Assembly (NCBI GenBank): GCA_030917025.1
Contig: JAUPVN010000072.1
Coordinates: forward strand, 1 to 35,042
From: Patescibacteria group bacterium
GTDB lineage: Bacteria > Patescibacteriota > Saccharimonadia > Saccharimonadales > CAIOMD01
Reading direction: 5' to 3'
DNA length: 35,042 nt
This document shows positions 23,015 to 34,348 of this stretch, piece by piece. The notes below the pieces were generated by a model. It was not told the origin of the DNA, did not search any database, and saw only the letters and a list, made by a program, of their open reading frames with translations. Made by a program: the position numbers and the translations under genes. Numbering within the stretch: the stretch's first letter is position 1; each line of letters begins with the position of its first letter.

Positions 23015-23089
23015 TCGGGAGTAGCTCAATGGTGGAGCAAGAAGCTGTTAACTTCGAGGTTGCCGGTTCGAGTCCGGCCTCCCGAGCCA
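23015..23089 (+). tRNA. tRNA-Asn (anticodon GTT), CCA encoded
   Basis: The cloverleaf was folded by hand. Acceptor stem: TCGGGAG/CTCCCGA. D-stem: GCTC/GAGC. Anticodon loop: CTGTTAA, with GTT at 23047-23049. T-arm: GCCGG-TTCGAGT-CCGGC. Discriminator G is followed by CCA at 23087-23089. Confidence 0.93.
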
Positions 23090-23110
23090 GACCCAGCAGA
23101 GAAATAGGTA

Positions 23111-23134
23111 GACCAGGTTCCTAGACCTGTCCCT
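23111..23134. repeat. Direct repeat copy 1 (GACCaGgTTC-CTAGACCTGTCCCT)
   Basis: The 14-nt perfect core CTAGACCTGTCCCT (23121-23134) recurs at 23297-23310. The flanks are also similar. Confidence 0.85.
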
Positions 23135-23194
23135 AACTTCTCTCCTTGGTCAGACAGAATGCTAATTTACAGTTCGTAAGTTACAAATGTTGGA

Positions 23195-23217
23195 ACCGTC
23201 AGAAATGGCGGTTTTTT
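23195..23217 (+). terminator. Rho-independent terminator-like hairpin downstream of the tRNA
   Basis: Stem ACCGTC / GGCGGT (one G-U pair), 6-nt loop agaaat, then a T6 run (23212-23217). Confidence 0.5.
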
Positions 23218-23233
23218 CATTTCACCCCTGTAA

Positions 23234-23258
23234 CTTGGTTCGAACCCAGCCCCTCCCG
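23234..23258 (+). other. tRNA 3'-end-like fragment (T-arm plus acceptor 3' strand), possible integration scar
   Basis: The fragment is cttGGTTCGAACccagccCCTCCCG. Compare the tRNA-Asn 3' end gccGGTTCGAGTccggcCTCCCGA. No matching 5' half is present upstream. Confidence 0.35.
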
Positions 23259-23286
23259 TCTTGAAGGAGCAAGCACCCCAAAAGCT

Positions 23287-23310
23287 GACCCGTTCCCTAG
23301 ACCTGTCCCT
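23287..23310. repeat. Direct repeat copy 2 (GACCcGtTCCCTAGACCTGTCCCT)
   Basis: See copy 1. The two copies flank a roughly 150-nt segment holding the terminator and the tRNA-like fragment. Confidence 0.85.
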
Positions 23311-23337
23311 TTACAAAGTACCCCCTAGGGGTATACA
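23310..23337 (+). promoter_or_regulatory. Promoter with embedded CsoR-type operator; probably a leaderless transcript
   Basis: TTTACA (23310-23315), a 16-nt spacer, then TATACA (23332-23337). The near-palindrome GTACCCCCTAGGGGTATAC (23318-23336) overlaps the spacer and -10 element. It consists of G/C tracts flanked by AT-rich inverted arms, as in CsoR-family operators. The ATG is at 23346 with no visible Shine-Dalgarno. Confidence 0.6.
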
Positions 23338-23345
23338 CTTTAGAT

Positions 23346-23630
23346 ATGAGAGAAGATATTAAAAAGCGCGCCAGTCACCGTACCAAAATTATTGAAGGCC
23401 AGATAAAAGGCTTACAAAAGATGATAGACAATGAGCAATATTGCATGGACATTCTCACTCAGAGTTTAGCAATCCAAAAGTCTCTAGCCTCACTGAATAA
23501 ACTGATAGTAGAAAACCATATAACTACACATATTACTGACATGCTTAGCTCTAGTGATGAAAAAGAACAGACCAAAGCCCTTGAAGAACTACTGAACTTA
23601 TACGAGCTCAACAACGTCAGGAGTAAGTAA
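23346..23630 (+). CDS. csoR: CsoR/RcnR-family metal-sensing repressor (ligand fingerprint x-C-H-H)
   Basis: The 94-aa ORF is a helical-bundle family member. Cys33 lies in QYCMDIL, and His58 and His62 lie in ENHITTHI. Its stop overlaps the ATPase start (TAATG). Confidence 0.85.
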   Translation: MREDIKKRASHRTKIIEGQIKGLQKMIDNEQYCMDILTQSLAIQKSLASLNKLIVENHITTHITDMLSSSDEKEQTKALEELLNLYELNNVRSK

Positions 23631-25642
23631 TGGATCATTCCATGCACGAAGGTCATCATGAATCTCATGACCACGATAAGCACGCGGGTCATAATCCAGA
23701 TATGTTTAAGAAAAAATTTTGGCTAAGCTTTGCCTTAACAATCCCTGTACTTATTTTCTCTGAAACAATTCAGGAACTTTTTAATTACACAGCACCTACG
23801 TTTCCAGTAAGCGAATGGATTCCAGCTATTTTGGGCACAATCATCTTTTTCTACGGCGGACTCGTATTCCTAAAGAGCGCAAAAGCTGAGCTATCTACTA
23901 GACAGCCCGGCATGATGACCCTTATCTCGTTAGCCATTACTGTCGCATTCGGCTATAGCATTGCGGTGTCGTTTGGGCTACAAGGCATGGATTTCTGGTG
24001 GGAACTAGCAACGTTAGTAACCATCATGCTCTTGGGGCACTGGTTAGAGATGGCTTCAGTGCAAAATGCACAAGGTGCATTAAAAGAACTGGCAAAACTA
24101 TTGCCTGATGAAGCTGAACTAATGACAAAAAATGGTACTAAAATAGTCACAGTCGCAAGTTTGAAAGTCGGCGATCTTGTATTGGTTCGCCCTGGCTCGA
24201 CTATTCCTACAGACGGCATCGTTATTAAAGGTGAGTCCAAGGTCAATGAATCAATGCTTACGGGTGAATCGAAACCTGTTAGCAAGCTTATGAAATCACT
24301 CGTTATTGGTGGTGCAATAAATGGAAGTGGTGCCCTCACTATTAAAGTCACAAAAGTTGGAGAAGATACTGCGCTCGCTGGAATTATGAAATTGGTTGCT
24401 GATGCACAGAACAGTAAGTCAAAAACACAGATTGTGGCTGACCGTGCAGCATTCTACTTAACATTTATTGCACTAGGCGCAGCGATACTTACTGCAATCG
24501 GCTGGACATTCTTCAGCGACCAGTCTGCTTCATTTATTCTTGAAAGAGTAGTAACCGTTCTTGTTATAGCTTGTCCACACGCACTCGGCCTTGCAGTGCC
24601 TCTTGTTACAGCTATCTCAACTACTCTCGCCGCAAAGAATGGTCTGCTCGTTCGTGAGCGTATGGCGCTCGAATCAGCAAGAAACATTGACGTCGTATTA
24701 TTCGATAAGACAGGAACACTGACCAAGGGTGAACAAGGAGTCGTCGATATCATTACTGATGGCGCAAAAGTTAACGATGTACTCGCTTTGGCCGCTTCAG
24801 TTGAACTTGAATCGGAGCATCCTATCGCAAAAGCAATTGTAACTTTTGCGAAAGGTAAAAAGCTGCAACTTAGCACCGCAAAAAAGTTTTCGGCAATGTC
24901 TGGTCGTGGTGCCAGAGCTACAGTCGGAGCCGATTTAGTGCACGTAGGTGGCCCAAGACTAATCGAGGAACTATCGCTGAAGTTAACTTCTAGCCTATTG
25001 AATGCTGCAACCAGTGCGAGTAATGATGGCAAGACAGTGGTTTATATCATCAAATCAAAAAAGGTTATCGGAGCAATTATGCTAGCCGATGTAATTCGAC
25101 CAGAATCGAAAGAAGCTGTCAAAACATTGCAAAAAGCTGGAAAGCGAGTAGCTATGCTAACTGGTGACGCCAAGGGTGTTGCCGCATGGGTATCGAAAGA
25201 ACTTGGAATTACAGAGTTCTTTGCTGAAGTTTTGCCTGAGCATAAAGCAGATGTTGTTAAAAAGCTTCAAGCCGATGGTAGCAAAGTTGCTATGGTCGGT
25301 GATGGGGTAAACGACGCCCCCGCACTCACACAAGCAGACGTAGGCATAGCTATTGGGGCTGGTACAGACGTCGCCATTGAATCTGCTGGAATTGTACTGG
25401 CTAGCAGTGATCCACGTGGTGTTGCAAAAATTGTCATCCTCTCAAAAGCTACTTACAGAAAAATGATTCAGAATTTGGCTTGGGCAACGGGCTACAACGC
25501 CATTGCTATACCACTAGCTGCAGGTGTGACGGCTGGATTAGGTTTTGTACTTTCTCCAGCTATAGGTGCAGTGCTCATGTCGCTTTCTACTATCATAGTA
25601 GCAGTTAACGCTCAATTCTTAAGGAAGTTGGATTTAGGGTAA
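23630..25642 (+). CDS. copB: P1B-3 (CopB-type) heavy-metal-transporting P-type ATPase with a His-rich N-terminus
   Basis: The N-terminus is MDHSMHEGHHESHDHDKHAGH, and no CxxC HMA domain is present. The TM motif is CPHALGLA (CPH). It has DKTGTLT, GDGVNDAP, GYNAIAIP and MSLSTIIVAVNA motifs. Confidence 0.9.
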   Translation: MDHSMHEGHHESHDHDKHAGHNPDMFKKKFWLSFALTIPVLIFSETIQELFNYTAPTFPVSEWIPAILGTIIFFYGGLVFLKSAKAELSTRQPGMMTLISLAITVAFGYSIAVSFGLQGMDFWWELATLVTIMLLGHWLEMASVQNAQGALKELAKLLPDEAELMTKNGTKIVTVASLKVGDLVLVRPGSTIPTDGIVIKGESKVNESMLTGESKPVSKLMKSLVIGGAINGSGALTIKVTKVGEDTALAGIMKLVADAQNSKSKTQIVADRAAFYLTFIALGAAILTAIGWTFFSDQSASFILERVVTVLVIACPHALGLAVPLVTAISTTLAAKNGLLVRERMALESARNIDVVLFDKTGTLTKGEQGVVDIITDGAKVNDVLALAASVELESEHPIAKAIVTFAKGKKLQLSTAKKFSAMSGRGARATVGADLVHVGGPRLIEELSLKLTSSLLNAATSASNDGKTVVYIIKSKKVIGAIMLADVIRPESKEAVKTLQKAGKRVAMLTGDAKGVAAWVSKELGITEFFAEVLPEHKADVVKKLQADGSKVAMVGDGVNDAPALTQADVGIAIGAGTDVAIESAGIVLASSDPRGVAKIVILSKATYRKMIQNLAWATGYNAIAIPLAAGVTAGLGFVLSPAIGAVLMSLSTIIVAVNAQFLRKLDLG

Positions 25643-25651
25643 AATATAGGT

Positions 25652-26011
25652 ATGAAGAAGCTAATAACTGGCATCATTACAGTCTTTACAGTCCTACTGT
25701 TCAACACGTTTGGCTCGGCTCTACATGCATCAGCAATGCCAATGGCATCTCACGAAATGGGTAGCATGAACCATGAAACTAGCAGTTCGACGTCCTGTGC
25801 AACACTATGTCGTACGGCTGTTATAAATAAAGAAGATATTCTCAATTTAGAAAATGATGAAGAGAACGATGAGCCAACAATACCGTTTTACGCTCAGGGT
25901 GAAGTTTTTAAGTTCAGCGAGATTCATGTAAATCAAAGGATCTATGCTGATTCTGTTAAGCCACCCCCAAAGATACCGATATATATTCTGTACAGTGTAT
26001 TTAGAGTCTAG
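25652..26011 (+). CDS. Small exported Met/His-rich protein, function unknown
   Basis: A signal-peptide-like N-terminus (MKKLITGIITVFTVLLFNTFGSALHASA) is followed by MPMASHEMGSMNHE and a CATLC motif. It starts 10 nt after copB. Confidence 0.5.
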   Translation: MKKLITGIITVFTVLLFNTFGSALHASAMPMASHEMGSMNHETSSSTSCATLCRTAVINKEDILNLENDEENDEPTIPFYAQGEVFKFSEIHVNQRIYADSVKPPPKIPIYILYSVFRV

Positions 26012-26060
26012 GATTTGTTTGTTAGTTCAAGCAATATCTTTAATTTAACGTGGAGAATAT

Positions 26061-26747
26061 ATGAAGAAGAAAACCAATAAGAACAACATCGTTATAGTGG
26101 CAACTGTCGCAATCGTGGCTATTGCAGGAGTCAGTGTCTACGCAATTAGTAACAATGACGATGGGATGATGGGCAACAACAATATGATGGGTGAAAACTC
26201 GTCACAGCAAGTAAGTTCAAGCAGTCTAGTAGACAAAAACTCGGCTGATTACAAAATGTACAGCGAACTTACTGGTGACGACTATGACCGTATGTTTATC
26301 GCCAATATGATTGAGCACCACAAGGGTGCGGTTGATATGGCAAAGTTAGCAAAGACTAACGCAAAGCACCAAGAACTAAAAGACATGGCTGATGATATAA
26401 TTTCAGCTCAAACCAAAGAAATTACCGATATGGAAAGCTGGCAAACAGCTTGGAGTTACCCATCAAGTAGCGGAGAAATGATGATGGATCATTCAGCTAT
26501 GGGAATGATGGCAGATATGGGACAAATGACTGAAGAGCTAAAAGGACTTACCGGCGATGCGTTTGATAAAGCTTTCCTAGCTTCAATGATAGAACACCAC
26601 CAATCAGCAATAAATATGTCATATCCTGGTCAGACAAACGCAAAGCATGACGAAGTAAAAACATTAACAAAAGCTATTGTAGCTGCTCAGAGTAGTGAAA
26701 TTGCACAGATGAAACAATGGCAAAAAGACTGGGGCTACGCAAACTAG
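26061..26747 (+). CDS. DUF305 family protein (two tandem four-helix repeats), membrane-anchored or exported
   Basis: The motif appears twice: FIANMIEHHKGAVDMAK and FLASMIEHHQSAINM. Each is followed by ...II(V)SAQ..EI..M..W. An N-terminal TM or signal segment is present. Confidence 0.8.
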   Translation: MKKKTNKNNIVIVATVAIVAIAGVSVYAISNNDDGMMGNNNMMGENSSQQVSSSSLVDKNSADYKMYSELTGDDYDRMFIANMIEHHKGAVDMAKLAKTNAKHQELKDMADDIISAQTKEITDMESWQTAWSYPSSSGEMMMDHSAMGMMADMGQMTEELKGLTGDAFDKAFLASMIEHHQSAINMSYPGQTNAKHDEVKTLTKAIVAAQSSEIAQMKQWQKDWGYAN

Positions 26748-26812
26748 AACACAGATTCTATAAGTGTATATATCATAGAAATATTAAATATTAATAAACA
26801 CTCGGAGAATAT

Positions 26813-27433
26813 ATGAAAACCCCAGAACTTAGAAGGCCAAATAAAGCCGTAATAGGCATTACGGGCATATTGATTGGTATGTTGGTAATATTGGGCATAA
26901 GATTTGTGTCTTATGAACCACCAAAAGATGTACACTATCATGCCAACTTTGCTGTCTATGTTGATGGCAAGCAAGAGCAGTTTAGTAACCCATTACTTTA
27001 CGAAGAAATTTCTGAATGTAGCATAAGTACTGAAGAGAAACCAGGTGAACGTGCACATTTACATGAAAATATTAAAGATGTAGTTCATGTGGAAGATAGC
27101 GCAGTAACTTGGGGAAATTTTTTCCAGAACATAAATTGGAATGTCAGTGACAAGTATTTAGATACTTCTGACGTACTGTTAGTTAACAACGACACAAAAA
27201 AAGTGACCTATATATTAAACGGTGAAGAAGTCAGCAATATAACTAACAAAGTTATTGGAGATAAAGATAGGTTGTTAGTAAGTTACGGTTCGTCGACAAA
27301 AGACGAGTTGAGTAAACAGTTTGATACAGTTGCTACGACTGCAGAAAAGTACAATATTACAAAAGACCCAGCATCATGCAGCGGTGGTCATAGCGAAGAC
27401 AGCATAAAAGACAGGTTGAAGCATTTGTTTTAA
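26813..27433 (+). CDS. Membrane-anchored extracytoplasmic protein with HxH motifs, function unknown
   Basis: An N-terminal TM segment (VIGITGILIGMLVILGI) is followed by HYHANFAVYVDG and AHLHEN..VVHVED. I recognise the pattern from uncharacterised proteins near metal or Dsb genes but cannot name a family. Confidence 0.45.
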   Translation: MKTPELRRPNKAVIGITGILIGMLVILGIRFVSYEPPKDVHYHANFAVYVDGKQEQFSNPLLYEEISECSISTEEKPGERAHLHENIKDVVHVEDSAVTWGNFFQNINWNVSDKYLDTSDVLLVNNDTKKVTYILNGEEVSNITNKVIGDKDRLLVSYGSSTKDELSKQFDTVATTAEKYNITKDPASCSGGHSEDSIKDRLKHLF

Positions 27434-27467
27434 TAATAACTATAGTTAAAAGAAGTAATCCAAGAGT

Positions 27468-28751
27468 CTATCTATAGAACTCTAGTTCGCCATCCTTTAT
27501 TTGCAACATAGGACCCATGTTTGATGCTAAGAATGTTCTCTCACTATCCGTGCCGTCAGCAAGTACATATCGAGCATACTCAATGAATGGATTATCTAGT
27601 TTTTGATCGATTTTGTAGTGAGTAAGTATAGTTTTAGTTGTATAGAAGTGTTTGTCGACCCTTGCTCTAAGTTTTTCGGTTATTTTTATGTCCTCGTGAT
27701 GTTTCTCAATAAAACCCTGCATCAATTCACAAAGTCTTTCTTCATTCACATATTTCTCGGCACAGTTTGGGTCTTTACGTCTTGTGCAGTTGTAGTATAC
27801 GAATCTTTTTACGTCACCATTTTTTAGCGTCTTGAATTTGTCTTGTGCTGTGATATCTGCAGTACACCGTCCACACTTCAATAGTCCTCGGAAGGCGAAT
27901 GTCTTTGACCCCCACACACCCTTGTTTACACCTCTCGTTTCTTGCACTAGATCGAATAGCTCTTTAGATATAAGTGGTTTATGAGCACCTGTATACCATG
28001 GTGCATCAGGTGCTTCGGGATATTGAAATTTACCGTAGTAAAAGGACGTGCCGAGAATCACTAGTATTTGGCTCACACTAATTGGTTTGCCCGAACGGTT
28101 GGTGAAGCCTTGCTCATCAAGCCATGCTTTTATCCTGCGACCGCTCCAACGCTCATACCCAGCTTTTTGAAAAGCTTCGATAATTAGTTCCGATCTATCA
28201 GGGTCGAGGATTATGTCGTTAACACCTGCGAATGCTCGATTCATGTATCCAAGTGGTGCAACGCCTGGTCGCCAACCCATCTCGCATTTGTTTCTAATGC
28301 CTCGTTTGACGTTAATACTTTTGTTATCATTCTCAAGTTTGGCTTGCGAACAAAGAATCATTAGCAAGAACTTCTCATTCGGGTTATTTGTGAACGTCTG
28401 CGAGTAAGTACGGATATGTAGTAGCTTGCCTTGATCCATGAGGTCAACAACCGATCCAAGGTCGCCAGCATTCCTACTCAGTCGATCGGGTGCCCATGTG
28501 AGGACGGCATTATATTCTTCGCTTGCTAAGCCCTTAAGTAATTTGTTGTATACGGGTCTTTTGCCAGAATCTTTAGCAGAGTGACTCTCCTGAAGCTCGC
28601 AGACTATCTGCAACCCTTCACTTTCGGCTAGTGCTCTCATTTCGTTAAGTTGTGAGTCAATCGACATTGCCTGACGCTCGTCGCTCTCAGAGCTTTTACG
28701 AGCATACAGGCAATATCTTAATGTCGGTTGACTGTCCAGCATGGCAAGCAC
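27468..28751 (-). CDS. Large serine recombinase (resolvase catalytic domain, recombinase domain, zinc ribbon)
   Basis: The N-terminus YCLYARKSSESDERQAMSIDSQ carries the catalytic-Ser context. DRLSRN is present. The C-terminal CGRC...YYNCTRRKDPNC forms a Zn ribbon, and a coiled-coil-like tail follows. The start is GTG at 28751 or ATG at 28742. Confidence 0.88.
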   Translation of the reverse strand: MLAMLDSQPTLRYCLYARKSSESDERQAMSIDSQLNEMRALAESEGLQIVCELQESHSAKDSGKRPVYNKLLKGLASEEYNAVLTWAPDRLSRNAGDLGSVVDLMDQGKLLHIRTYSQTFTNNPNEKFLLMILCSQAKLENDNKSINVKRGIRNKCEMGWRPGVAPLGYMNRAFAGVNDIILDPDRSELIIEAFQKAGYERWSGRRIKAWLDEQGFTNRSGKPISVSQILVILGTSFYYGKFQYPEAPDAPWYTGAHKPLISKELFDLVQETRGVNKGVWGSKTFAFRGLLKCGRCTADITAQDKFKTLKNGDVKRFVYYNCTRRKDPNCAEKYVNEERLCELMQGFIEKHHEDIKITEKLRARVDKHFYTTKTILTHYKIDQKLDNPFIEYARYVLADGTDSERTFLASNMGPMLQIKDGELEFYR

Positions 28752-28790
28752 AACAGTACCGCTGCACCCCAGTTAAGTCTAGTCTATTAT

Positions 28791-29120
28791 CTAAAGATAT
28801 TTAGGGAAAACACGCGTAAAACTATCGGCTGTTTCGACCAACCATTTGATTAGGTCTTTAGAATCGCTTTCGTCTAGAAAATCACCATCATGCGTAACGA
28901 TAATACGACTTGCTTTGCGTTCTGGTAATTCTTGCCAGTCCAAAGTAAACCCGAGTTTGGTTTCAATATCCTCTTTTTTAGAGAATAACTTATGAAATAG
29001 GTCTTTGTTATCGGGAATATAAAGTTCCATTGCTACTTGTTGTTCTTTTGAATTCAAAGTAGCACTGAGGTGAGCCTGTGATGATCCTACTCTAATGTTC
29101 TGCCAATGTTGGGGAGCCAA
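28791..29120 (-). pseudogene. DUF4268-domain gene, probably 5'-truncated
   Basis: The C-terminal pattern ELYIPDNKDLFHKLFSKKEDIETKLGFTLDWQELPERKASRIIV matches DUF4268. The ORF opens with a non-ATG codon (TTG) directly after a hairpin. The usual N-terminal roughly 35 aa are missing. Confidence 0.4.
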
Positions 29121-29135
29121 GCTGGAATAGACGAA

Positions 29136-29167
29136 GTCAGAACTGTGAAAATGGTTCTGACTTTTTG
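29136..29167. terminator. 9-bp stem hairpin with a T-run on the plus strand (orientation and function uncertain)
   Basis: AGTCAGAAC, 10-nt loop, GTTCTGACT, then TTTT on the plus strand. It lies between the permease stop (29222) and the DUF4268 fragment. No plus-strand gene ends nearby. Confidence 0.35.
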
Positions 29168-29221
29168 TATACCCAGAATAGAAATGAAACCGTCTATTTA
29201 ATATGTGAACAGTGTTGATTG

Positions 29222-30202
29222 CTAGAACAGGAAGTTAATAATCCAGCCGATGATAATTATTCCTGTTGTAACCACTCCAAAATACATTGCAAGTAGCTTT
29301 AAGCTCATAACTTTTTTAAGTATCAACGCTTCGGGCAAAGACAAGCCAACGGTCGCCATCATAAAGACTAGTGCGGTGCCAATAGGTACGCCCTTGATAA
29401 CCAGTGCTTGCATGATAGGAATCACACCTACGGCGTTGGAATAGAGCGGTACAGCCACGATGGTGGCAATGGGTACTGTCCACCATGCACCGTTACTAAG
29501 TGTGTTTTCAAAAAAGTCTTGTGGTACATAACCGTGTATTGCTGCACCAATGGCTATACCGATAAGTACATAAGGAATCAATTTTTTGGTTAGCTGCAAT
29601 CCTTCTGACCACCACAACTTCATAAGCTCTCTTTTAGGTTGCTTAACAACAGCACCACCCATGCCTGTTCTAACGTGCTTGCTTATTTCTAAGATGTCGG
29701 GGCTAATGTGTTTTTTAACGTTTATTCTGCTTAATACAAGTCCACCAATAACTCCAACTGTCATGGCAGCAAGAACATAGTAAATCGTTAGCTTAAAACC
29801 AAAGAGCCCAATAAATAATGCTATCGCAGCTTCATTGATGAGCGGAGACGTTATTAGGAAAGTGAATGTAACGCCAATAGGTATGCCAGCACCTAAAAAG
29901 CCTACGAATAATGGGATTGATGAGCACGAGCAGAACGGTGTAATTGCCCCAAACATAGCGGCTAGAATGTAATCTAGCCCATACCATTTTCGTTTCTGCA
30001 AAAAGTCACGTATTTTTTCTAGCGGCAAATAGTAGCGGATCATAGCCATCAAGTAGTTGATGACAAGTAGTAGCAAGAGAATCTTTAGGCTGTCATAGAT
30101 AAAGAAATTCAAAGCATCGGCTATTTTAGAGCCGTGTTCGAGTGAAAGCAGATTGTATATAACCCAGTCAGCAAAAGCTTGCAAGGGCTGAAAGATACTC
30201 AT
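29222..30202 (-). CDS. UPF0718/ArsP-type permease (predicted permease with CxC motif)
   Basis: The 326-aa ORF has about 8-10 TM helices and the motif FCSCSSIPLF characteristic of the PF03773-type permeases. It has the usual gene neighbourhood of ArsR plus a small redox-active thioredoxin-like protein. Confidence 0.78.
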   Translation of the reverse strand: MSIFQPLQAFADWVIYNLLSLEHGSKIADALNFFIYDSLKILLLLLVINYLMAMIRYYLPLEKIRDFLQKRKWYGLDYILAAMFGAITPFCSCSSIPLFVGFLGAGIPIGVTFTFLITSPLINEAAIALFIGLFGFKLTIYYVLAAMTVGVIGGLVLSRINVKKHISPDILEISKHVRTGMGGAVVKQPKRELMKLWWSEGLQLTKKLIPYVLIGIAIGAAIHGYVPQDFFENTLSNGAWWTVPIATIVAVPLYSNAVGVIPIMQALVIKGVPIGTALVFMMATVGLSLPEALILKKVMSLKLLAMYFGVVTTGIIIIGWIINFLF

Positions 30203-30225
30203 AGTGTTAATTTTCGGTTAGCTTA

Positions 30226-30480
30226 TTATTTATTTGCTGTCTCAAGAATCAGGTTCTTAATCTTCTGTGTACTAGGGCTGTAGCCAACCATAGCAATCTT
30301 GCCATCAACAACTAATGCTGGTGACTGCATTAAGCCTAGCTCTAATAAACGCTTCATACCGTCTTGATTGGTGATGTAGATTACTTCGGCACTTTCGCCA
30401 ATTTCAGCAGCAGCTACTCGCGTTATCTTGTGTAGCTGTTGGCATGTTGCACATCCCGTTCCTACAACTTCGATTTTCAT
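30226..30480 (-). CDS. Small thioredoxin-fold protein (redox-active disulfide protein 2 type)
   Basis: The 84-aa ORF starts MKIEVVGTGCATCQ, which carries a CxxC motif. An AAGGAG Shine-Dalgarno lies upstream. Confidence 0.8.
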   Translation of the reverse strand: MKIEVVGTGCATCQQLHKITRVAAAEIGESAEVIYITNQDGMKRLLELGLMQSPALVVDGKIAMVGYSPSTQKIKNLILETANK

Positions 30481-30814
30481 CTTGGTTCTCCTTTTTATTA
30501 GTTAACGAAAAAATAATATCCGTGACATATTTACCTTGTTCACTCAAAGCATAGTGCGTCTTAAGCCCTCGCTTTTCTGCAACTACTAAGTCGGCTTGCT
30601 TTAGGTCGGCAAGGTGATGGGAAATAAGGCTTTGGGATAGGTCGGTGGCGTGTTCTTCGAATTCACATACACAATGCTCGCCACCATCACGAAGTATGCA
30701 AAGTAAGCGTAATCGATTCTGTTCAGCCACTATTTTAAGCAAGCCCGAAAGATCTTGGATGTCTTTGGAGGCAGTAGAGGTATTATCGCAACAACTATAT
30801 GAACGCATATTCAT
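30404..30814 (-). CDS. arsR: ArsR/SmtB-family metalloregulator with an unusual 3' extension overlapping the next gene by 77 nt
   Basis: The winged HTH has LLCILRDGGEHCVCEF (CVC in helix alpha3) and SQSLISHHLADL. A Cys pair is present at the N-terminus (SYSCCD). The ORF continues past the usual end into the thioredoxin-like gene. Confidence 0.82.
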   Translation of the reverse strand: MNMRSYSCCDNTSTASKDIQDLSGLLKIVAEQNRLRLLCILRDGGEHCVCEFEEHATDLSQSLISHHLADLKQADLVVAEKRGLKTHYALSEQGKYVTDIIFSLTNKKENQDENRSCRNGMCNMPTATQDNASSCC

Positions 30815-30900
30815 ATATTACGCTTTGCTGATGTATTGTCAACTAATTGACTGCTAAATCTTGCTTTATTGCGGTTATGACATCCTCTATCGTTGTGAGC

Positions 30901-30939
30901 CAAGCATAAGCACTTTGTGAAAGCAAAGTGTTTTTGTTT
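30901..30939. repeat. Roughly 38-nt repeated element, copy A (contains CACTTTG-N6-CAAAGTG followed by T5)
   Basis: CAAGCATAAGCACTTTGTGAAAGCAAAGTGTTTTTGTTT, to be compared with copy B at 31362-31399. It lies in the arsR/30956 divergent intergenic region, 17 nt before an ATG. Confidence 0.7.
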
Positions 30940-30955
30940 GTGAGACAATGAGGCT

Positions 30956-31327
30956 ATGCAAGTTTTAGGTATCGCGCTATCTTTGTTTCTTCTGTTTTTT
31001 GCCATATTTCAATTACTTTTGGTTATGGGAGCGCCTTACGGCGAAGCTGCTTGGGGGGGACGGCAAGGAAAAATATTGCCTAGAAACTATCGCATCGCAA
31101 GTGCATTTTCTTGTTTATTCTTTATCATTTCGATTTTAGTAGTTTTATCAGCGACGGGGATAATTAATTTGTTTAGGTCGTCATTTGTAGGTGGCTACAT
31201 GTGGTTTTTAACTGTTTATCTAGGCTTAGGAATTATTATGAATGCAATCTCTAGAAGCAAAATAGAAAGATATTGGGCACCAGTTATAGCTGTAATGTTT
31301 ATTCTTTGCCTTATGATATTGCTTTAA
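30956..31327 (+). CDS. Small polytopic membrane protein, function unknown
   Basis: The 123-aa ORF has four hydrophobic helices. No family was recognised. Confidence 0.5.
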   Translation: MQVLGIALSLFLLFFAIFQLLLVMGAPYGEAAWGGRQGKILPRNYRIASAFSCLFFIISILVVLSATGIINLFRSSFVGGYMWFLTVYLGLGIIMNAISRSKIERYWAPVIAVMFILCLMILL

Positions 31328-31361
31328 TTATTTAATTTGCATCATGCCCACAATTGCTAGT

Positions 31362-31399
31362 CAAGCATAATCACTTTGTAGCAGAGTGTTTTTTGTTTT
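31362..31399. repeat. Roughly 38-nt repeated element, copy B
   Basis: CAAGCATAATCACTTTGTAGCAGAGTGTTTTTTGTTTT. It is followed by TATAAT (31405-31410) and the NUDIX ATG at 31417. Confidence 0.7.
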
Positions 31400-31416
31400 C
31401 GGGGTATAATTATATT

Positions 31417-31869
31417 ATGAGAACTATACATCGCGATATTGCTGGTGGTTTTATATTTTCTAAAGATGGAAAGTTACTGTTAGGTAAGAACCGAAAAGGT
31501 GGGGTGTACGAGGGCTCATTTGTAGTGCCAGGTGGCGGAGTAGATGATGGTGAAACTAAAGAGGCCGCGCTTAGACGCGAAATGCTTGAGGAAACGGGTA
31601 TAGATACAAACACTGCTACTGTAACGCCACTTTATCAATCATCGGGCGAACACGAAAAAACACTTAGAGATACTGGCGAGCGAGTGTCTGTAAAAATGAA
31701 ATTTTACAACTATCGTATTGATCTTAGCCTAAATGCCGATGAAGTTGTTATAAAAACTGAGGACGATTGGTATCAGTCACGCTGGTTTTTGATTGAGGAG
31801 CTAAAAAATGCAAATTTAAGTGAGCCAACTCGTAATACTCTGGTTGAAACGGGGATTATAAAAGAGTAG
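31417..31869 (+). CDS. NUDIX hydrolase
   Basis: The Nudix box is GGGVDDGETKEAALRREMLEETGI (GX5EX7REUXEEXGU). I take the start as MRTIHRD at 31417. The ORF-track start at 31354 would include the repeat and promoter-like sequence. Confidence 0.85.
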   Translation: MRTIHRDIAGGFIFSKDGKLLLGKNRKGGVYEGSFVVPGGGVDDGETKEAALRREMLEETGIDTNTATVTPLYQSSGEHEKTLRDTGERVSVKMKFYNYRIDLSLNADEVVIKTEDDWYQSRWFLIEELKNANLSEPTRNTLVETGIIKE

Positions 31870-32124
31870 TTGTTGGCTACATATCGCCAAACGTACAATC
31901 CTCAAACTGCTCTTTAGTAGTTTGTAATGTTTCATCTAGGAGGATATATGATTACATATGTGACCCATATGTCTGTTATGTATTAACGCTACTGTACTTT
32001 TGCTATAATTGTATTGTTAGTAAGCCCAGACGCATAAAATAACTTCTTAGTCTCAAGAAACAATTATTATCTGGTTAACAATCAATTAGAGACTAACTTT
32101 ATTACTAAATAAGGAGTCAAAACT

Positions 32125-32283
32125 ATGTCACAAATGCCAAAAGAAGAGCAGACACAGTGGTACGAAAGAACGCATAAGCATTGGCGTTCTTGGGGATCTT
32201 GGTTTAGCTGGGGTTCACCAGTTGGGCTAGGACTATTTTTGCTTGCTATTGCAGGCGCAGTCTGGATTATTGCTCAGATATAA
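32125..32283 (+). CDS. Unlisted 52-aa Trp-rich single-pass membrane protein
   Basis: Hand translation gives MSQMPKEEQTQWYERTHKHWRSWGSWFSWGSPVGLGLFLLAIAGAVWIIAQI*. A strong AAGGAG Shine-Dalgarno (32111-32116) lies 8 nt upstream of the ATG. A convincing terminator follows immediately. Confidence 0.55.
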   Translation: MSQMPKEEQTQWYERTHKHWRSWGSWFSWGSPVGLGLFLLAIAGAVWIIAQI

Positions 32284-32290
32284 AGCAATA

Positions 32291-32334
32291 AGTAGTGCAT
32301 AATATAAATTAAAATCTGTTATGCACTACTTTTA
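32291..32334 (+). terminator. Rho-independent terminator
   Basis: A perfect 12-bp stem, AGTAGTGCATAA (32291-32302) / TTATGCACTACT (32319-32330), with a 16-nt loop, followed by TTTT. Confidence 0.6.
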
Positions 32335-32354
32335 AGAGTTTTTGTTAAATATTG

Positions 32355-32384
32355 TTGACATGATATTAGTAGGTTTGATAAATT
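32355..32384 (+). promoter_or_regulatory. Candidate sigma70 promoter
   Basis: TTGACA (32355-32360), a 17-18 nt spacer, then ATAAAT or TAAATT (32378-32384). Confidence 0.35.
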
Positions 32385-32391
32385 ATAAATT

Positions 32392-32540
32392 AGGAAGATC
32401 AAGTGAAACAGCACATTAATATGTAGCCAAGCAAGTTTGATAGTTCGAGTAAGGTTATTTAGTTAGTAGGCTACATCTGTGGGTGCAAATCTTCCTTAGG
32501 TTCTAAAATAGAGGCACATTTAGTGCCTCTATTTGCTATT
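32392..32540 (+). ncRNA. Candidate structured RNA (sRNA or cis-regulatory 5' leader): long three-tier hairpin plus terminator-like hairpin
   Basis: Three stacked pairings are visible. The outer is AGGAAGAT (32392-32399) with ATCTTCCT (32489-32496). The middle is GCAC (32411-32414) with GTGC (32483-32486). The inner is ATGTAGCC (32421-32428) with GGCTACAT (32469-32476). An 11-bp hairpin follows: AATAGAGGCAC (32507-32517) with GTGCCTCTATT (32523-32533), then a T-rich stretch. I recognise no known riboswitch consensus. Confidence 0.3.
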
Positions 32541-32564
32541 ATAGGTTTATAAGGAGATAAAATT

Positions 32565-33085: not shown

Positions 33086-34099
33086 ATGACAAATGTAATA
33101 AACAATAATTACTTAATATCAAAAAAAGCTCGCGATGCTGTAGCTGATGTTTTAGGTTATGAAATTGAAAAGCTGCAGATTAAACCCGTTAGTGGTGGGT
33201 ATTCTCGTAATAGGCGTTCAGTAGTAGGCCGAGATGATACTTGGGTTTTTGTAAAAGAAGTTGACACAACTTTATTGCCAAACGGCGGAAAAGAAGAAAA
33301 ATGGTGGTTAAAAAAAGATAATTTATGCGTAGGGGCTTTAAACAAAATAGCCCCCGAATTTGTGCCAGAATGGTCGCGTCTTGAGTTGGGCGGGCACGTA
33401 TTAATTATGCCAGCTTATATAAAAGAAGATGGTTGGCTATGGCAATTGCCCAAATATATAAAATTACAAAATAAATATATTGAGGCAGTATTGAACGTAA
33501 CAAAAAAGCTTGAGACCGTTAACTTTAAAGATTCAGAAATCAAAAAAATGCAATTGCAAACATATTTTAGAGATAAGATAGGTTACGATGAAGGATTTGA
33601 CCAAATTATTAAATCTAAAACTGTTAGGAATAAGCTTTTAGAAAAATTTGTTTCACTTAAAAACGAATATCCAGAATCTGACCAATTAAAGTATGACCAA
33701 GTTATCATTTTACTTAATAATAAAAATGAGCAAAAAGAGTTAAAAAATATTGCTACAAATCTTACGAAACAACCAAATGATTGTTTTGGCCTTTGTGATG
33801 TTAGAAGTGATAATATTGCTTATAATACTAATACCGGCCAAATTAAATTAGTTGACTGGAACTGGGCATCTTTTACTCCAAATAATTTTGGATCAACCGA
33901 GTTTCTTATAGATATGGCTAGGCAAGGTGTTGATATTAAAGCTTGGTTTAATAGTATAAATATTGAATTACTTGTTACATTAATTGGTTATTGGCTAAAG
34001 TCTTGCATTAATAAGCCACTTGCCCCCGGTAACAATTTGCGCGATATGCAAGCCATTTCTGCCGCTAACGCATTAAGCATATACAATTTAATAAAATAG
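33086..34099 (+). CDS. Protein-kinase-like/aminoglycoside-phosphotransferase-fold protein, substrate unknown
   Basis: It has an N-lobe-like SGGYSRNRRSVV...WVFVKEV, a catalytic-loop-like CDVRSDNI (Asp and Asn conserved, the usual His absent), and a DxD-like KLVDWNWA. Confidence 0.5.
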   Translation: MTNVINNNYLISKKARDAVADVLGYEIEKLQIKPVSGGYSRNRRSVVGRDDTWVFVKEVDTTLLPNGGKEEKWWLKKDNLCVGALNKIAPEFVPEWSRLELGGHVLIMPAYIKEDGWLWQLPKYIKLQNKYIEAVLNVTKKLETVNFKDSEIKKMQLQTYFRDKIGYDEGFDQIIKSKTVRNKLLEKFVSLKNEYPESDQLKYDQVIILLNNKNEQKELKNIATNLTKQPNDCFGLCDVRSDNIAYNTNTGQIKLVDWNWASFTPNNFGSTEFLIDMARQGVDIKAWFNSINIELLVTLIGYWLKSCINKPLAPGNNLRDMQAISAANALSIYNLIK

Positions 34100-34348
34100 A
34101 TACTTAATTTTTGTGAATTTGTTGGGCTTCTTGTAGGAGTTTTAGTACCAATGTATCTATTGGGTAGATTGATAATTATAATATCTTTTGGTCTAATACA
34201 AACGCATATAGCCGTGTATTTTGCTAGTTGTAGTTAGCTCGGTTTGAGCAGTGTTTCAAATTGAATCGTGAGTTTTAGTATGTTCTCACTGTTCTTTATT
34301 ATATATTCGCGCGGGTCTTGAGCGTGAGCAGATAGTTTATAGCAGCTA

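What the first reader, a model, noticed from the sequence alone, without database searches (positions are those of the whole stretch)
23090..32340. Roughly 9-kb higher-GC mosaic island inserted immediately 3' of tRNA-Asn
Seen: base composition steps up from the first base after the tRNA CCA. My hand counts of sampled 60-nt lines give about 48-57% GC inside and about 27-35% outside. It drops back near 32340-32470. Contents are a csoR-family gene with copB, three exported accessory proteins, a large serine recombinase, a truncated DUF4268 gene, an arsR/trx-like/permease operon, a membrane protein, a NUDIX gene and a small ORF. Known: tRNA 3' ends are hot spots for genomic islands, and copper and ArsR-type modules are common cargo. 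Inference: this is a recent horizontal acquisition of metal-homeostasis functions by a low-GC, reduced-genome host. That would be notable if the host is an obligate symbiont. The recombinase sits mid-island rather than at an edge, which suggests at least two fused modules.
Basis: partly seen in the sequence, partly recalled or inferred. Interest (0 to 1): 0.62.

Follow-up and report, generated by a model that had tools for sequence, protein, structure and literature searches.

The report
Serine-integrase copper island at tRNA-Asn
A 7.8-kb mobile island carrying copper-export and ArsR-type genes sits at the last bases of the tRNA-Asn gene of a tiny Saccharibacteria genome; it was most likely inserted by a serine integrase whose relatives across this bacterial group lie next to tRNA genes, a habit usually credited to tyrosine integrases.

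Summary
GC is 41.6% in 23090-30902 against 35.3% in the flank (not 48-57% against 27-35%), and the tetranucleotide distance doubles.

The same-genus genome G001 has both flanks at 96-100% identity and none of 23090-30896. It does share the membrane, NUDIX and 52-aa genes, so the recent insert ends at 30902, not 32340.

The insert is composite.
- E1 (23090-29115) holds a conserved 221-nt arm (Y), csoR-copB, three exported proteins, an intact large serine recombinase (LSR) and a cut DUF4268 gene.
- E2 (29116-30902) holds a fossil junction with a terminator, an ArsP/thioredoxin/ArsR operon and a conserved 50-nt end arm.

All junctions carry GAGCCA, the last six bases of the tRNA.

E1 is 89-90% identical to copies in two Saccharibacteria genomes whose backbones are 71% identical or less. 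A viral-database contig is 100% identical up to 29115 and runs on into the part deleted here (terminase-like and ParB-methylase genes). Donors are therefore other Saccharibacteria.

Of 66 related recombinase loci, 43 have a convergent tRNA downstream, and the tRNA kind follows the recombinase tree.

No excision was seen.

The parts
23015..23089 (+). tRNA-Asn (GTT), intact. Its last six bases GAGCCA (23084-23089) form the shared core of every junction in the array (attL side).
   Evidence: ARAGORN and Rfam tRNA at 64.5 bits. It is 100% identical to the G001 tRNA. Homology to the E1 copies in G041 and G042 starts inside the tRNA at 23065.
23090..23310 (+). Y, a conserved non-coding arm of the element. 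It holds hairpin motif 1 (23111-23134), an intrinsic terminator (23194-23218, stem AACCGTCA/TGGCGGTT plus T6), a fossil tRNA-Asn 3' half (23237-23258) and hairpin motif 2 (23287-23310).
   Evidence: It is found directly after tRNA-Asn, or after a decayed pseudo-tRNA, in 21 of 80 related loci, with 24 copies aligned. The terminator stem shows a compensatory A-T to C-G change. There is no Rfam hit. Indels are not multiples of three, so it is non-coding.
23346..23630 (+). csoR-family copper-sensing repressor (94 aa).
   Evidence: Pfam PF02583, E = 8e-22. It is 95-97% identical to the copies in L024 and L048.
23630..25642 (+). CopB-type P1B ATPase (670 aa) with a His-rich N-terminus and a CPH motif.
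   Evidence: Pfam E1-E2_ATPase and Hydrolase domains. The translation shows MDHSMHEGHHESHDHDKHAGH and VIACPHALG. It is 93-94% identical to L024 and L048.
25652..27433 (+). Three exported or anchored accessory proteins: 119 aa (Met/His-rich), 228 aa (DUF305) and 206 aa.
   Evidence: Pfam DUF305, E = 9e-41; the other two have no family. They lie in the same order in L024, L048, L099 and L111 at 84-100% aa identity.
27468..28751 (-). Large serine recombinase (427 aa), intact and convergent with the tRNA. It is the presumed integrase.
   Evidence: Pfam Resolvase, Recombinase and Zn_ribbon_recom domains. The best solved relatives are the SPbeta SprA and TP901-1 integrases. There are 469 relatives in genome contigs, most of the 80 kept labelled Saccharibacteria or other Patescibacteria.
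28752..28783 (-). Conserved stretch upstream of the recombinase (GTACCGC ... AAGTCTAG). It is the last sequence shared by all relatives on this side, probably a promoter or operator.
   Evidence: The 5' regions of nine loci were compared. Beyond it each genome carries different genes.
28791..29115 (-). DUF4268', the C-terminal third of a 307-313-aa gene. Its 5' part and the rest of the element are deleted. The breakpoint is 29115|29116.
   Evidence: Pfam DUF4268 profile positions 27-140. Full-length copies exist in L028, L034, L036, L099 and L112. L112 is 100% identical up to 29115 and then continues.
29114..29175 (+). Internal fossil junction: GAGCCA (29114-29119) plus terminator termB (stem 29136-29143 with 29154-29161, then T5).
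   Evidence: It is homologous to the 'pseudo-tRNA 3' half + GGAGCCA + termB' junction in G042 (84.5% identity) and to the one in G041. A related copy lies in G001 at L021:12087-12141. Metagenome unitigs break at 29146-29175.
29222..30814 (-). E2 cargo: arsR-family regulator (30404-30814), Thioredoxin_3 protein (30226-30480) and ArsP_1 permease (29222-30202).
   Evidence: Pfam. The same slot between termB and the X arm holds a histidine phosphatase in G042 and an amidohydrolase plus a DHODH-like gene in G041.
30853..30902 (+). X arm, the conserved distal end of the composite element. It ends in GTTGTGAGCCA (GAGCCA = 30897-30902) and marks the outer attR.
   Evidence: It is 85-90% identical to sequences at the distal end of the tRNA-Asn islands of G041 and G042. 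There it is followed by different, host-specific terminators.
30903..30940 (+). termA, the native tRNA-Asn terminator of this lineage, displaced 7.8 kb from the tRNA.
   Evidence: In G001 a termA copy follows the tRNA CCA directly. A second copy, 98% identical to this one, precedes the same membrane-protein gene.
30956..32283 (+). Older part of the array, shared with G001: a 123-aa membrane protein (30956-31327), a degenerate junction TAGTCA plus termA'' (31358-31393), NUDIX (31417-31869) and a 52-aa ORF (32125-32283).
   Evidence: It is 96-99% identical to G001 and has 37.2% GC. The repeat family occurs only at this locus in the genome. G001 has an extra Peptidase_S51 cassette between the membrane-protein and NUDIX genes.

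Best explanation
**What it is.** The host is a Saccharibacteria (Patescibacteria/CPR) genome with about 35% GC. Window 23090-30902 is a composite, partly decayed integrative element. It was inserted at the 3' end of tRNA-Asn by site-specific recombination catalysed by its own large serine recombinase (LSR).

**Inferred mechanism.** The LSR recombines an element site (X arm-GAGCCA|Y) with the chromosomal site (tRNA-Asn 3' end GAGCCA|native terminator termA).
- The crossover lies in or next to GAGCCA.
- The tRNA stays intact and receives a new terminator from Y.
- The native terminator is pushed 7.8 kb away, behind the X arm.

**Cargo.** A csoR-copB copper-efflux module with three exported helper proteins lies between Y and the integrase gene. 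An ArsR/thioredoxin-like/ArsP-family permease operon lies between an internal fossil junction (29114-29175) and the X arm.

**Decay.** The original element was longer: ParB-methylase, terminase small- and large-subunit-like genes, a 115-aa gene, an EEP nuclease and a full DUF4268 gene. That part was lost in a recent deletion whose left end is 29115. The right end falls four bases before the end of the fossil GAGCCA core.

**The locus.** The tRNA-Asn 3' end is an accretion hot spot. Successive elements and small cassettes pile up in tandem, each bounded by a GAGCCA-type remnant plus a terminator. The two sister genomes differ in which cassettes they hold.

**Shown:** composition, gene content, boundaries, absence from the sister genome, near-identical copies in distant Saccharibacteria, the family-wide link between recombinase and tRNA, and the deletion.

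**Inferred:** that the LSR made the insertion, the crossover position, and the copper and metalloid functions.
For: 1. **Boundaries.** G001 (same genus) matches the left flank to the last base of the tRNA (96-98%) and resumes at 30897 (96-99%). It matches nothing in between and has no recombinase.
2. **Mobility.**
   - 23065-28765 is 89-90% identical to G041 and G042. The rest of the query, where it aligns to these genomes at all, is 71% identical or less.
   - The LSR is 98% identical in protein.
   - IMG/VR contigs L112 (100% nt) and L111 (98% nt) carry the same module.
3. **Integrase role.**
   - The LSR has all three Pfam domains, and its best solved relatives are the SprA and TP901-1 integrases.
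   - 43 of 66 relatives with downstream flank have a convergent tRNA within 10 kb of the stop codon. Only 2 of 70 have any tRNA upstream.
   - The tRNA kind (Asn, Met, Gln, Ser, Pro, Arg, Leu, Tyr) needs 8 changes on the LSR tree. Label shuffles need 23 on average and at least 17.
4. **Junction logic.**
   - GAGCCA is invariant in 24 of 24 tRNA|Y and pseudo-tRNA|Y junctions, even where the pseudo-tRNA has decayed.
   - The distal ends in G041, G042 and the window share the X arm-GAGCCA, followed by different terminators. The one in the window is the native terminator that G001 has directly after its tRNA.
5. **Accretion.** Tandem P-arm|Y junctions occur in G041, G042, L025, L031, L035 and L044. 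GAGCCA-plus-terminator repeats separate cassettes in both the window and G001, and they occur nowhere else in the genome.
6. **Deletion.** L099 and L112 are identical to the window up to 29115, then continue into full DUF4268 and the terminase module. A wastewater metagenome shows the undeleted continuation as a loose end at 29115.
7. **Donor composition.** The E1 copies have 41.9-42.1% GC in hosts with 41-48% GC.
Against: - No excised circle, empty site or recombination joint was seen in four metagenomes. Only assembler contigs were available, so this is a weak test.
- The far-end repeat in the window is only 6 nt. No dyad symmetry typical of serine-integrase attP sites could be shown by eye between the X arm and Y.
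- A 6-bp shared core is more typical of tyrosine recombinases, yet none is encoded here.
- Serine integrases normally do not use attL as a target, so tandem accretion needs relaxed specificity or homologous recombination.
- The P arm next to E1 is deleted, so E1 alone probably can no longer excise.
- Saccharibacteria are naturally competent (my own recollection, Wang et al. 2023, not checked here). Exchange by homologous recombination between the conserved tRNA and the repeated terminators could explain the cassette differences without the recombinase.
- The conserved linkage of LSR and tRNA could partly reflect vertical synteny.
- Metal functions are inferred from families only.
Confidence: 0.72

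Rival explanations
1. Allele swapping by natural transformation. The island and the cassettes entered as linear DNA and replaced resident DNA by double homologous crossover. The anchors were the conserved tRNA-Asn and the repeated GAGCCA/terminator or arm sequences. On this view the recombinase is a passenger in this genome.
For: - Repeated 40-50-nt junction and terminator sequences flank each cassette.
- The termB and X arms are 84-90% conserved between distant genomes, with different cargo between them.
- The sister genomes differ by whole cassettes between conserved anchors.
- No excision products were seen.
Against: - Anchors of 40-75 nt at 85-92% identity are poor substrates for homologous recombination.
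- It does not explain why GAGCCA is invariant in decayed pseudo-tRNA junctions.
- It does not explain why the tRNA kind follows the recombinase tree across Patescibacteria.
- Homology with the donor-type copies starts inside the tRNA, as expected for an element that rebuilds its target.
Confidence: 0.15
2. Ancestral island lost in the sister lineage. 23090-30902 was already present in the common ancestor of G000 and G001, and in G001 it was replaced by the 2-hydroxyacid dehydrogenase cassette.
For: - G001 does not have an empty site. It has a different cassette at the same junction.
- Only one sister genome is available.
Against: - GC of 41.6% and doubled tetranucleotide distance show no amelioration towards the 35% host.
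- A contig 100% identical to the window still has the undeleted distal part.
- 98% protein identity to copies in genomes with backbones 71% identical or less indicates recent movement.
- Either way the DNA is foreign. This rival changes only the timing.
Confidence: 0.08
3. Remnant of a temperate phage or phage satellite. The whole structure is a decayed prophage-like element. The copper genes are lysogenic-conversion cargo, and movement between cells is by packaging (terminase genes) rather than as a plain genomic island.
For: - Undeleted relatives carry ParB-methylase, a small-terminase-like gene and a large-terminase-like gene (Terminase_6C, E = 6e-7) next to the LSR, in the same order in at least 10 loci.
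- IMG/VR lists several of them as viral contigs.
Against: - No portal, capsid or tail genes were seen within 10 kb in any locus examined. The neighbours are restriction-modification and metabolic genes.
- The window copy has lost the terminase module.
- This is compatible with the best explanation. It concerns the vehicle, not the integration.
Confidence: 0.3

Closest known systems
Large serine recombinase (serine integrase) elements: phiC31, Bxb1, TP901-1, A118, SPbeta SprA, SCCmec Ccr
   Same: - Same three-domain enzyme. SprA and TP901-1 are the best solved relatives.
- The integrase gene lies near one end of the element.
- The junctions share only a short core.
- The element carries accessory cargo.
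   Different: - Known serine integrases nearly always target protein-coding genes or intergenic sites and often disrupt the target (PMC5357655, PMC4701971).
- This family sits at the 3' end of tRNA genes and keeps the tRNA intact.
- The enzyme is short (427 aa).
- Elements accumulate in tandem.
tRNA-gene genomic islands made by tyrosine integrases (Islander-type islands, P4-like integrases)
   Same: - Integration at the tRNA 3' end.
- The element restores the gene.
- Displaced tRNA fragments mark the far end (seen as pseudo-tRNA 3' halves in G042, L024, L048 and L025).
- Metal-resistance cargo and a shift in composition.
   Different: - No tyrosine recombinase is encoded. The only recombinase is of the serine type.
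- In the window the far-end repeat is only GAGCCA.
Tandem accretion of integrative elements (ICESt1/ICESt3-type CIMEs; IME/ICE tandems at rpsI, rpmG and rplL in streptococci)
   Same: - Several elements or their remnants lie head to tail at one attachment site, separated by att-like repeats.
- Deletions then fuse modules (PMC5357655 describes the concept).
   Different: - The streptococcal cases use tyrosine integrases and conjugative or mobilisable modules.
- Here the enzyme is a serine recombinase, there are no transfer genes, and many units are one- to three-gene cassettes, each bounded by a junction and a terminator.
Integron cassette arrays
   Same: An array of small cassettes, often promoter-poor, lies next to one recombinase gene and one primary site. 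Cargo varies between conserved ends.
   Different: - There is no IntI tyrosine recombinase and no attC hairpin sites.
- The primary site is a tRNA end.
- Trans-mobilisation of the cassettes is not shown.
- This is a resemblance in layout only.
CsoR-CopB (P1B-3 ATPase) copper efflux operons and ArsR/ArsP-family permease/thioredoxin-fold operons
   Same: The domain content and gene order of the cargo fit these common modules.
   Different: - Function was not tested.
- The PF03773 permease family is broader than methylarsenite efflux.
- The three exported partners of CopB (a Met/His-rich protein, DUF305 and a 206-aa protein) form a set seen here only within this element family.

Membership tests
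Large serine recombinase / serine integrase | N-terminal resolvase-type catalytic domain with a serine nucleophile | tested here: met
   PF00239, E = 1e-20, residues 15-159. YARKSS aligns with YLRRSR of the SPbeta SprA catalytic region.
Large serine recombinase / serine integrase | Recombinase domain followed by a zinc-ribbon domain | tested here: met
   PF07508, E = 4.5e-11, and PF13408, E = 3.4e-6. The translation shows CxxC...C...C cysteines.
Large serine recombinase / serine integrase | Coiled-coil motif in the zinc-ribbon domain that controls directionality | not tested
   No structure prediction was run. The protein is short (427 aa), so the motif may be reduced.
Large serine recombinase / serine integrase | Catalyses attP x attB recombination with a 2-bp crossover and no long identity | not testable with these tools
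   Only junction comparison was possible. The shared core is GAGCCA.
tRNA-integrated genomic island | Insert begins within or at the 3' end of an intact tRNA gene | tested here: met
   Divergence from G001 starts at 23090. Homology to the other element copies starts at 23065, inside the tRNA.
tRNA-integrated genomic island | Displaced tRNA 3' fragment or direct repeat at the far end | tested here: inconclusive
   The window has only GAGCCA, at 29114-29119 and 30897-30902. Longer decayed 3' halves are present at the equivalent junctions of G042, L024, L048 and L025.
tRNA-integrated genomic island | Absent from close relatives, with deviant composition | tested here: met
   Absent from G001. GC is 41.6% against 35.3%, and tetranucleotide distance is 0.40 against 0.14-0.18.
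Integrative conjugative or mobilisable element (ICE/IME) | Relaxase, coupling protein or type IV secretion genes | tested here: not met
   No such Pfam family was found in any ORF of 23090-32340, or in the relatives examined.
Integron | IntI-type tyrosine recombinase with attI and attC sites | tested here: not met
   The only recombinase is of the serine type. The boundary repeats are a tRNA-end remnant plus terminators, not attC.
Prophage or phage satellite | Packaging and virion genes | tested here: inconclusive
   The window has none. Undeleted relatives have small- and large-terminase-like genes but no portal or capsid genes within 10 kb. IMG/VR lists some as viral.
CsoR-CopB copper efflux module | CsoR-family repressor next to a P1B-3 ATPase (CPH motif, His-rich N-terminus) | tested here: met
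   PF02583 and the P-type ATPase domains. The translation shows the CPH motif and MDHSMHEGHHESHDHDKHAGH. Copper transport itself was not tested.

The most novel reading that the evidence does not exclude
A clade of short large serine recombinases, spread across contigs labelled Patescibacteria, has specialised on the 3' ends of tRNA genes. Target choice (Asn, Met, Gln, Ser, Pro, Arg, Leu, Tyr) evolves along the enzyme tree. At tRNA-Asn of Saccharibacteria the enzyme also builds and reshuffles, in trans, arrays of small non-autonomous cassettes. These cassettes carry only the two short arms (an X-type P arm ending in GAGCCA, and a P' arm that doubles as the tRNA terminator). That would be a serine-recombinase counterpart of an integron. 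It would serve as the main gene-acquisition platform of these minimal genomes.
Probability: 0.3. Interest if true: 0.8.

Novelty: new variant of a known kind. Interest (0 to 1): 0.55.

Why it matters
**Gene gain in minimal genomes.** Saccharibacteria and other CPR bacteria have minimal genomes and live on other bacteria. How they gain genes is poorly known.
- This locus shows a concrete route: a serine-integrase element family, circulating within the phylum, that lands at the end of tRNA-Asn.
- It carries metal-efflux, restriction-modification and metabolic genes and piles up in tandem.
- Sister genomes therefore differ by whole cassettes.

**Rule of thumb.** It contradicts the view that tRNA-end integration belongs to tyrosine integrases.

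**Practical use.** A compact 427-aa serine integrase, with a natural landing site in a conserved tRNA gene, is a candidate tool for stable gene insertion in Saccharibacteria. Few genetic tools exist for them.

**Ecology.** The copper cargo is present in wastewater, sludge and freshwater metagenomes from several studies. This suggests selection by metals in those habitats.

**Literature.** I found no paper describing this family in the library searched. That is not proof that none exists.

Tried and rejected
- **Direct repeat of the tRNA 3' end inside the window.** Nothing longer than GAGCCA was found.
- **Y as a structured RNA.** There is no Rfam hit. Its covarying hairpin is followed by a T run and reads as an intrinsic terminator. 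The tRNA-like stretch is a fossil tRNA-Asn 3' half. I dropped the 'new ncRNA' idea.
- **A minimal element ending at the conserved AAGTCTAG upstream of the recombinase.** No displaced tRNA fragment follows it in any locus, so it is more likely a promoter or operator.
- **Plasmid origin.** Megablast of the island against 72,556 plasmids found nothing.
- **Excision or empty-site evidence in four metagenomes.** No valid joints were seen; only contigs were available.
- **Genes on the far side of the pseudo-tRNA|Y junctions of L024 and L048, taken as the other end of a circular form.** They are defence or metabolic genes, and the true tRNA lies 8-16 kb further on. These are tandem arrays, not attP.
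- **Conjugation genes.** None were found.
- **Dyad symmetry between the X arm and the start of Y.** Checked by eye only; not convincing.
- **Literature searches for a description of this family.** Nothing specific was found.


Full report
**1. The observation**

tRNA-Asn(GTT) lies at 23015-23089 on the + strand (Rfam tRNA).

| Segment | GC |
|---|---|
| 1-23014 | 35.3% |
| 23090-32340 | 40.9% |
| beyond 32340 | 33.9% |

The median 60-nt line is 40% inside and 35% outside. No 7.8-kb window of the left flank exceeds 35.8%, whereas 23090-30900 has 41.6%. Tetranucleotide distance to the flank is about 0.40 inside and 0.14-0.18 outside.

**2. The host and the true boundaries**

The window's genome is 0.70 Mb at 75% completeness, and its relatives are 0.6-1.2 Mb. 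The genes left of the tRNA are syntenic with records labelled Candidatus Saccharibacteria (gene clusters c16, c17 and c25 in L030 and L031).

One genome of the same genus, G001, carries both flanks on one contig.
- It is 96-98% identical up to the last base of the tRNA.
- Identity resumes at window 30897 (96-99%) and runs through the 123-aa membrane protein, NUDIX, the 52-aa ORF and the LOR-family gene.
- It has nothing like 23090-30896 and no related recombinase anywhere.
- At that position it has a 2-hydroxyacid dehydrogenase gene. It also has an extra Peptidase_S51 gene between the membrane-protein and NUDIX genes.

The recently acquired DNA is therefore 23090-30902, not 23090-32340.

**3. 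Junction anatomy**

In G001 the tRNA CCA is followed directly by a terminator, termA (AGCATAAGCACTTTG..AAAGCA.AGTGTTTTT). A second termA copy, preceded by GGGGGAGCCA, stands before the membrane-protein gene.

In the window the junctions read as follows.
- The tRNA is followed by a 221-nt non-coding arm, which I call Y.
- The ArsR operon is followed by a 50-nt arm ending GTTGTGAGCCA (X arm, 30853-30902).
- Then comes the termA copy orthologous to G001's second copy.
- A third junction, GGGGAGCCA plus a different terminator (termB), lies at 29114-29175. This is exactly where the DUF4268 gene is cut.
- A degenerate fourth junction (TAGTCA plus termA'') lies at 31358-31393.

This repeat family occurs only at this locus in the genome. 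Every junction carries GAGCCA, the last six bases of the tRNA.

**4. Relatives of the recombinase**

The 427-aa protein has Resolvase, Recombinase and Zn_ribbon_recom domains. Its best solved relatives are the SPbeta SprA and TP901-1 integrases.

A scan of one genome per prokaryotic species found 469 relatives. Most of the 80 kept lie in contigs labelled Saccharibacteria or other Patescibacteria. A few carry other labels, probably from mis-binning.
- Of 66 loci with at least 1.5 kb downstream of the gene, 43 have a tRNA gene convergent with it within 10 kb.
- Of 70 loci with upstream flank, 2 have any tRNA there.
- The tRNA kind follows the recombinase tree. There is an Asn clade (which includes the window), a Met clade, several Gln clades, and Ser, Pro, Arg, Leu and Tyr cases. 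The tree needs 8 changes for 8 kinds among 45 labelled rows. Label shuffles need 23 on average and never fewer than 17.

This is the pattern expected of site-specific integrases whose target choice evolves with the enzyme. In the literature I could search, serine integrases are described as targeting protein-coding genes, and tRNA-gene targeting is attributed to tyrosine integrases (PMC5357655, PMC4383910). I found no description of this family.

**5. The element moves between Saccharibacteria**

Window 23065-28765 covers the last 25 nt of the tRNA, Y, csoR, copB, the three exported proteins and the recombinase. It is colinear at 89-90% nucleotide identity with G041 (locus L024) and G042 (locus L048). 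Everything else in the 19.9-kb query aligns to those two genomes at 71% or less, or not at all. Protein identities are 98% for the recombinase, 93-94% for CopB and 94-97% for CsoR, DUF305 and the 206-aa protein.

GC of the element copies is 41.9-42.1%, in hosts with about 41% (G041) and 44-48% (G042). The element therefore stands out only in this 35% host.

Within the host's own family the distribution is patchy. Only G012 has a close homologue (72%), again next to tRNA-Asn, and G005 has a 97%-identical fragment. The donor pool is thus other Saccharibacteria.

In other members of the Asn clade (L025, L030, L031) the same slot holds a different P-type ATPase, only 34% identical, with its own CsoR-family gene. 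Metal efflux is recurrent cargo.

**6. Y**

Y follows the tRNA, or a decayed pseudo-tRNA, in 21 of the 80 loci. Twenty-four copies were aligned. It is non-coding and has no Rfam match. It consists of four parts.
- A hairpin with a conserved TTCCTAGA loop (23111-23134).
- An intrinsic terminator (23194-23218), whose stem shows a compensatory change among copies.
- A fossil 3' half of tRNA-Asn (23237-23258).
- A second copy of the hairpin motif (23287-23310).

I read it as the element-side arm of the attachment site. It also provides a new terminator for the tRNA, and it carries the scar of an older accretion event. GAGCCA is invariant in all 24 junctions, including those whose pseudo-tRNA has otherwise decayed. 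This points to a role in recombination rather than in tRNA function.

**7. Tandem accretion**

- In G042 the real tRNA-Asn is followed by a first Y and 7.8 kb of genes (NUDIX, GreA-like, ribonucleotide reductase). Next come a pseudo-tRNA|Y junction, the copper module, the recombinase and 10 kb of metabolic genes. Then follows a decayed tRNA 3' half ending GGAGCCA plus termB. Last come one gene (a histidine phosphatase) and the X arm ending GTGAGCCA, followed by a different terminator.
- G041 has the same order over 48 kb, with two recombinases.
- L025, L031, L035 and L044 also have two or three Y copies.

The termB junction and the X arm are 84-90% identical in the three genomes. The cargo between them differs: the ArsR operon here, a histidine phosphatase in G042, and an amidohydrolase plus a dihydroorotate-dehydrogenase-like gene in G041. 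What follows the X arm is host-specific, and here it is the lineage's own termA.

The simplest reading has three parts.
- X arm-GAGCCA is the distal (P) arm of the composite element.
- 29114-29175 is an internal fossil junction from an earlier accretion.
- The whole of 23090-30902 is bounded by attL (tRNA|Y) and attR (X arm|termA).

The first 25 nt of termB resemble the start of Y (AGCCAA.G.AGA.AAA..CAGA.C; one search compared). The small termB-cargo-X units could therefore be substrates of the same enzyme. This is inference.

**8. The recombinase is 'mid-island' because of a deletion**

Full-length DUF4268 genes (307-313 aa) stand next to the recombinase in L028, L034, L036, L099 and L112.

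The IMG/VR contig L112 is 100% identical to window 27702-29115. It then continues into the rest of DUF4268, an EEP-family nuclease, a 115-aa gene, a large-terminase-like gene, a small-terminase-like gene and a ParB-DNA methylase. The same module lies in the same order in at least ten loci.

In the window all of this is missing. The sequence switches at 29115|29116 to GCCA plus termB, with three bases (GGA) shared between the two parents. A wastewater metagenome contains the undeleted continuation as a loose end at 29115.

The window's copy is thus a recent deletion derivative. It keeps an intact integrase but has lost the terminase module and the P arm next to E1.

**9. Independent support for the assembly, and population data**

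The region is held nearly complete by runs from at least nine studies (freshwater, wastewater and activated sludge).

Contigs of three other runs link the following stretches:
- 23276-29175
- 29146-32195
- 29086-30914
- 27851-29163

A 124-nt contig links the host-type tRNA 3' half to the start of Y. The contigs break at Y, at termB and at 32195, as expected for sequences shared among strains.

In run X7 the ArsR cassette has about half the depth of the flanks and of E1. This hints that it is variably present. Summed contig depths are a poor measure, though. No joint indicating excision or an empty site was found. With contigs only, this is weak negative evidence.

**10. What the cargo probably does (inferred from families)**

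CsoR would repress csoR-copB until Cu(I) binds. CopB is a P1B ATPase with a CPH motif and a His-rich N-terminus, and it would export copper. The three exported proteins (Met/His-rich 119 aa, DUF305, 206 aa) always travel with it and may handle copper outside the membrane. The ArsR-family regulator, the thioredoxin-fold protein and the PF03773 permease form a common metal or metalloid-responsive efflux operon whose substrate is unknown.

**11. Verdict**

The boundary, the size of the GC step and the donor need correction.

The object is a decayed member of a serine-integrase element family that targets tRNA gene ends and accretes in tandem. I rate it a new variant of a known kind.

Earlier notes of this scan on other genomes reached similar readings (e1-2122379, e1-2700485, e1-2967555, e1-2033795). 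They are not independent evidence, and the tests cited above were all run here.

Noticed in passing
window 32393-32545: A conserved non-coding element of about 110 nt plus a terminator lies upstream of the LOR-family gene. It is 83% identical in another genus (G003, 180 nt after a tRNA-Gln) and 74% identical in G024 and G040. Stems show compensatory changes (GTAGCC/GGCTAC to GTGACC/GGTCAC; GGAAGATC/..ATCTTCC to GGAAGACC/..GTCTTCC). There is no Rfam match. It is a candidate small RNA and may mark the ancestral right edge of the variable array.
   Followed up: partly
window 33086-34300: A 337-aa kinase-like gene (weak Choline_kinase match) in a low-GC stretch lies between the LOR-family gene and the CAAX-protease gene. 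It is absent from the sister genome G001, where these two genes are adjacent. This is a second indel between the two genomes.
   Followed up: partly
L112:19-5436; also L111, L116, L028, L034, L036, L024, L031, L039: A conserved module (246-aa unknown, ParB-DNA methylase, small-terminase-like, large-terminase-like, 104-116-aa unknown) lies next to the recombinase in many Saccharibacteria. No portal or capsid genes are nearby. IMG/VR lists some of these contigs as viral. It may be a phage-satellite-like packaging module.
   Followed up: partly
L025:12184-14676, L030:11334-13826, L031:11333-13826: A different P-type ATPase (635 aa, 34% identical to the CopB here), with its own CsoR-family gene and a 95-aa gene, occupies the same slot between Y and the recombinase. 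Metal-efflux cargo has been recruited at least twice by this element family.
   Followed up: no
L051-L057 (tRNA-Met); L065-L103 (mostly tRNA-Gln, also Ser, Pro, Arg, Leu, Tyr): More distant clades of the same recombinase family (47-64% identity), in contigs labelled Saccharibacteria, Paceibacterota, Peribacteria, Kaiserbacteria and others, lie convergent with other tRNA genes. Some are as close as 113-270 nt.
   Followed up: partly
L029 (labelled Anaerolineae), L099 (labelled Chryseobacterium), L069-L071, L091, L096, L098 (labelled Gammaproteobacteria): Short contigs carrying this recombinase family are filed under unrelated phyla. Given their content (tRNA-Asn plus Y, or a 96% match to the window), these are probably binning or labelling errors and not cross-phylum transfer.
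   Followed up: no
window 30404-30480: The ArsR-family ORF overlaps the following thioredoxin-fold gene by 77 nt and ends in a Cys-rich tail (…CRNGMCNMPTATQDNASSCC).
   Followed up: no
L033:5764-9892, L028:350-3087, L030:1-7685, L111:1-4719: Type I restriction-modification genes (HsdM, HsdS, HsdR) often lie just beyond the recombinase or terminase module in these tRNA-Asn islands. The islands therefore also act as defence islands.
   Followed up: no
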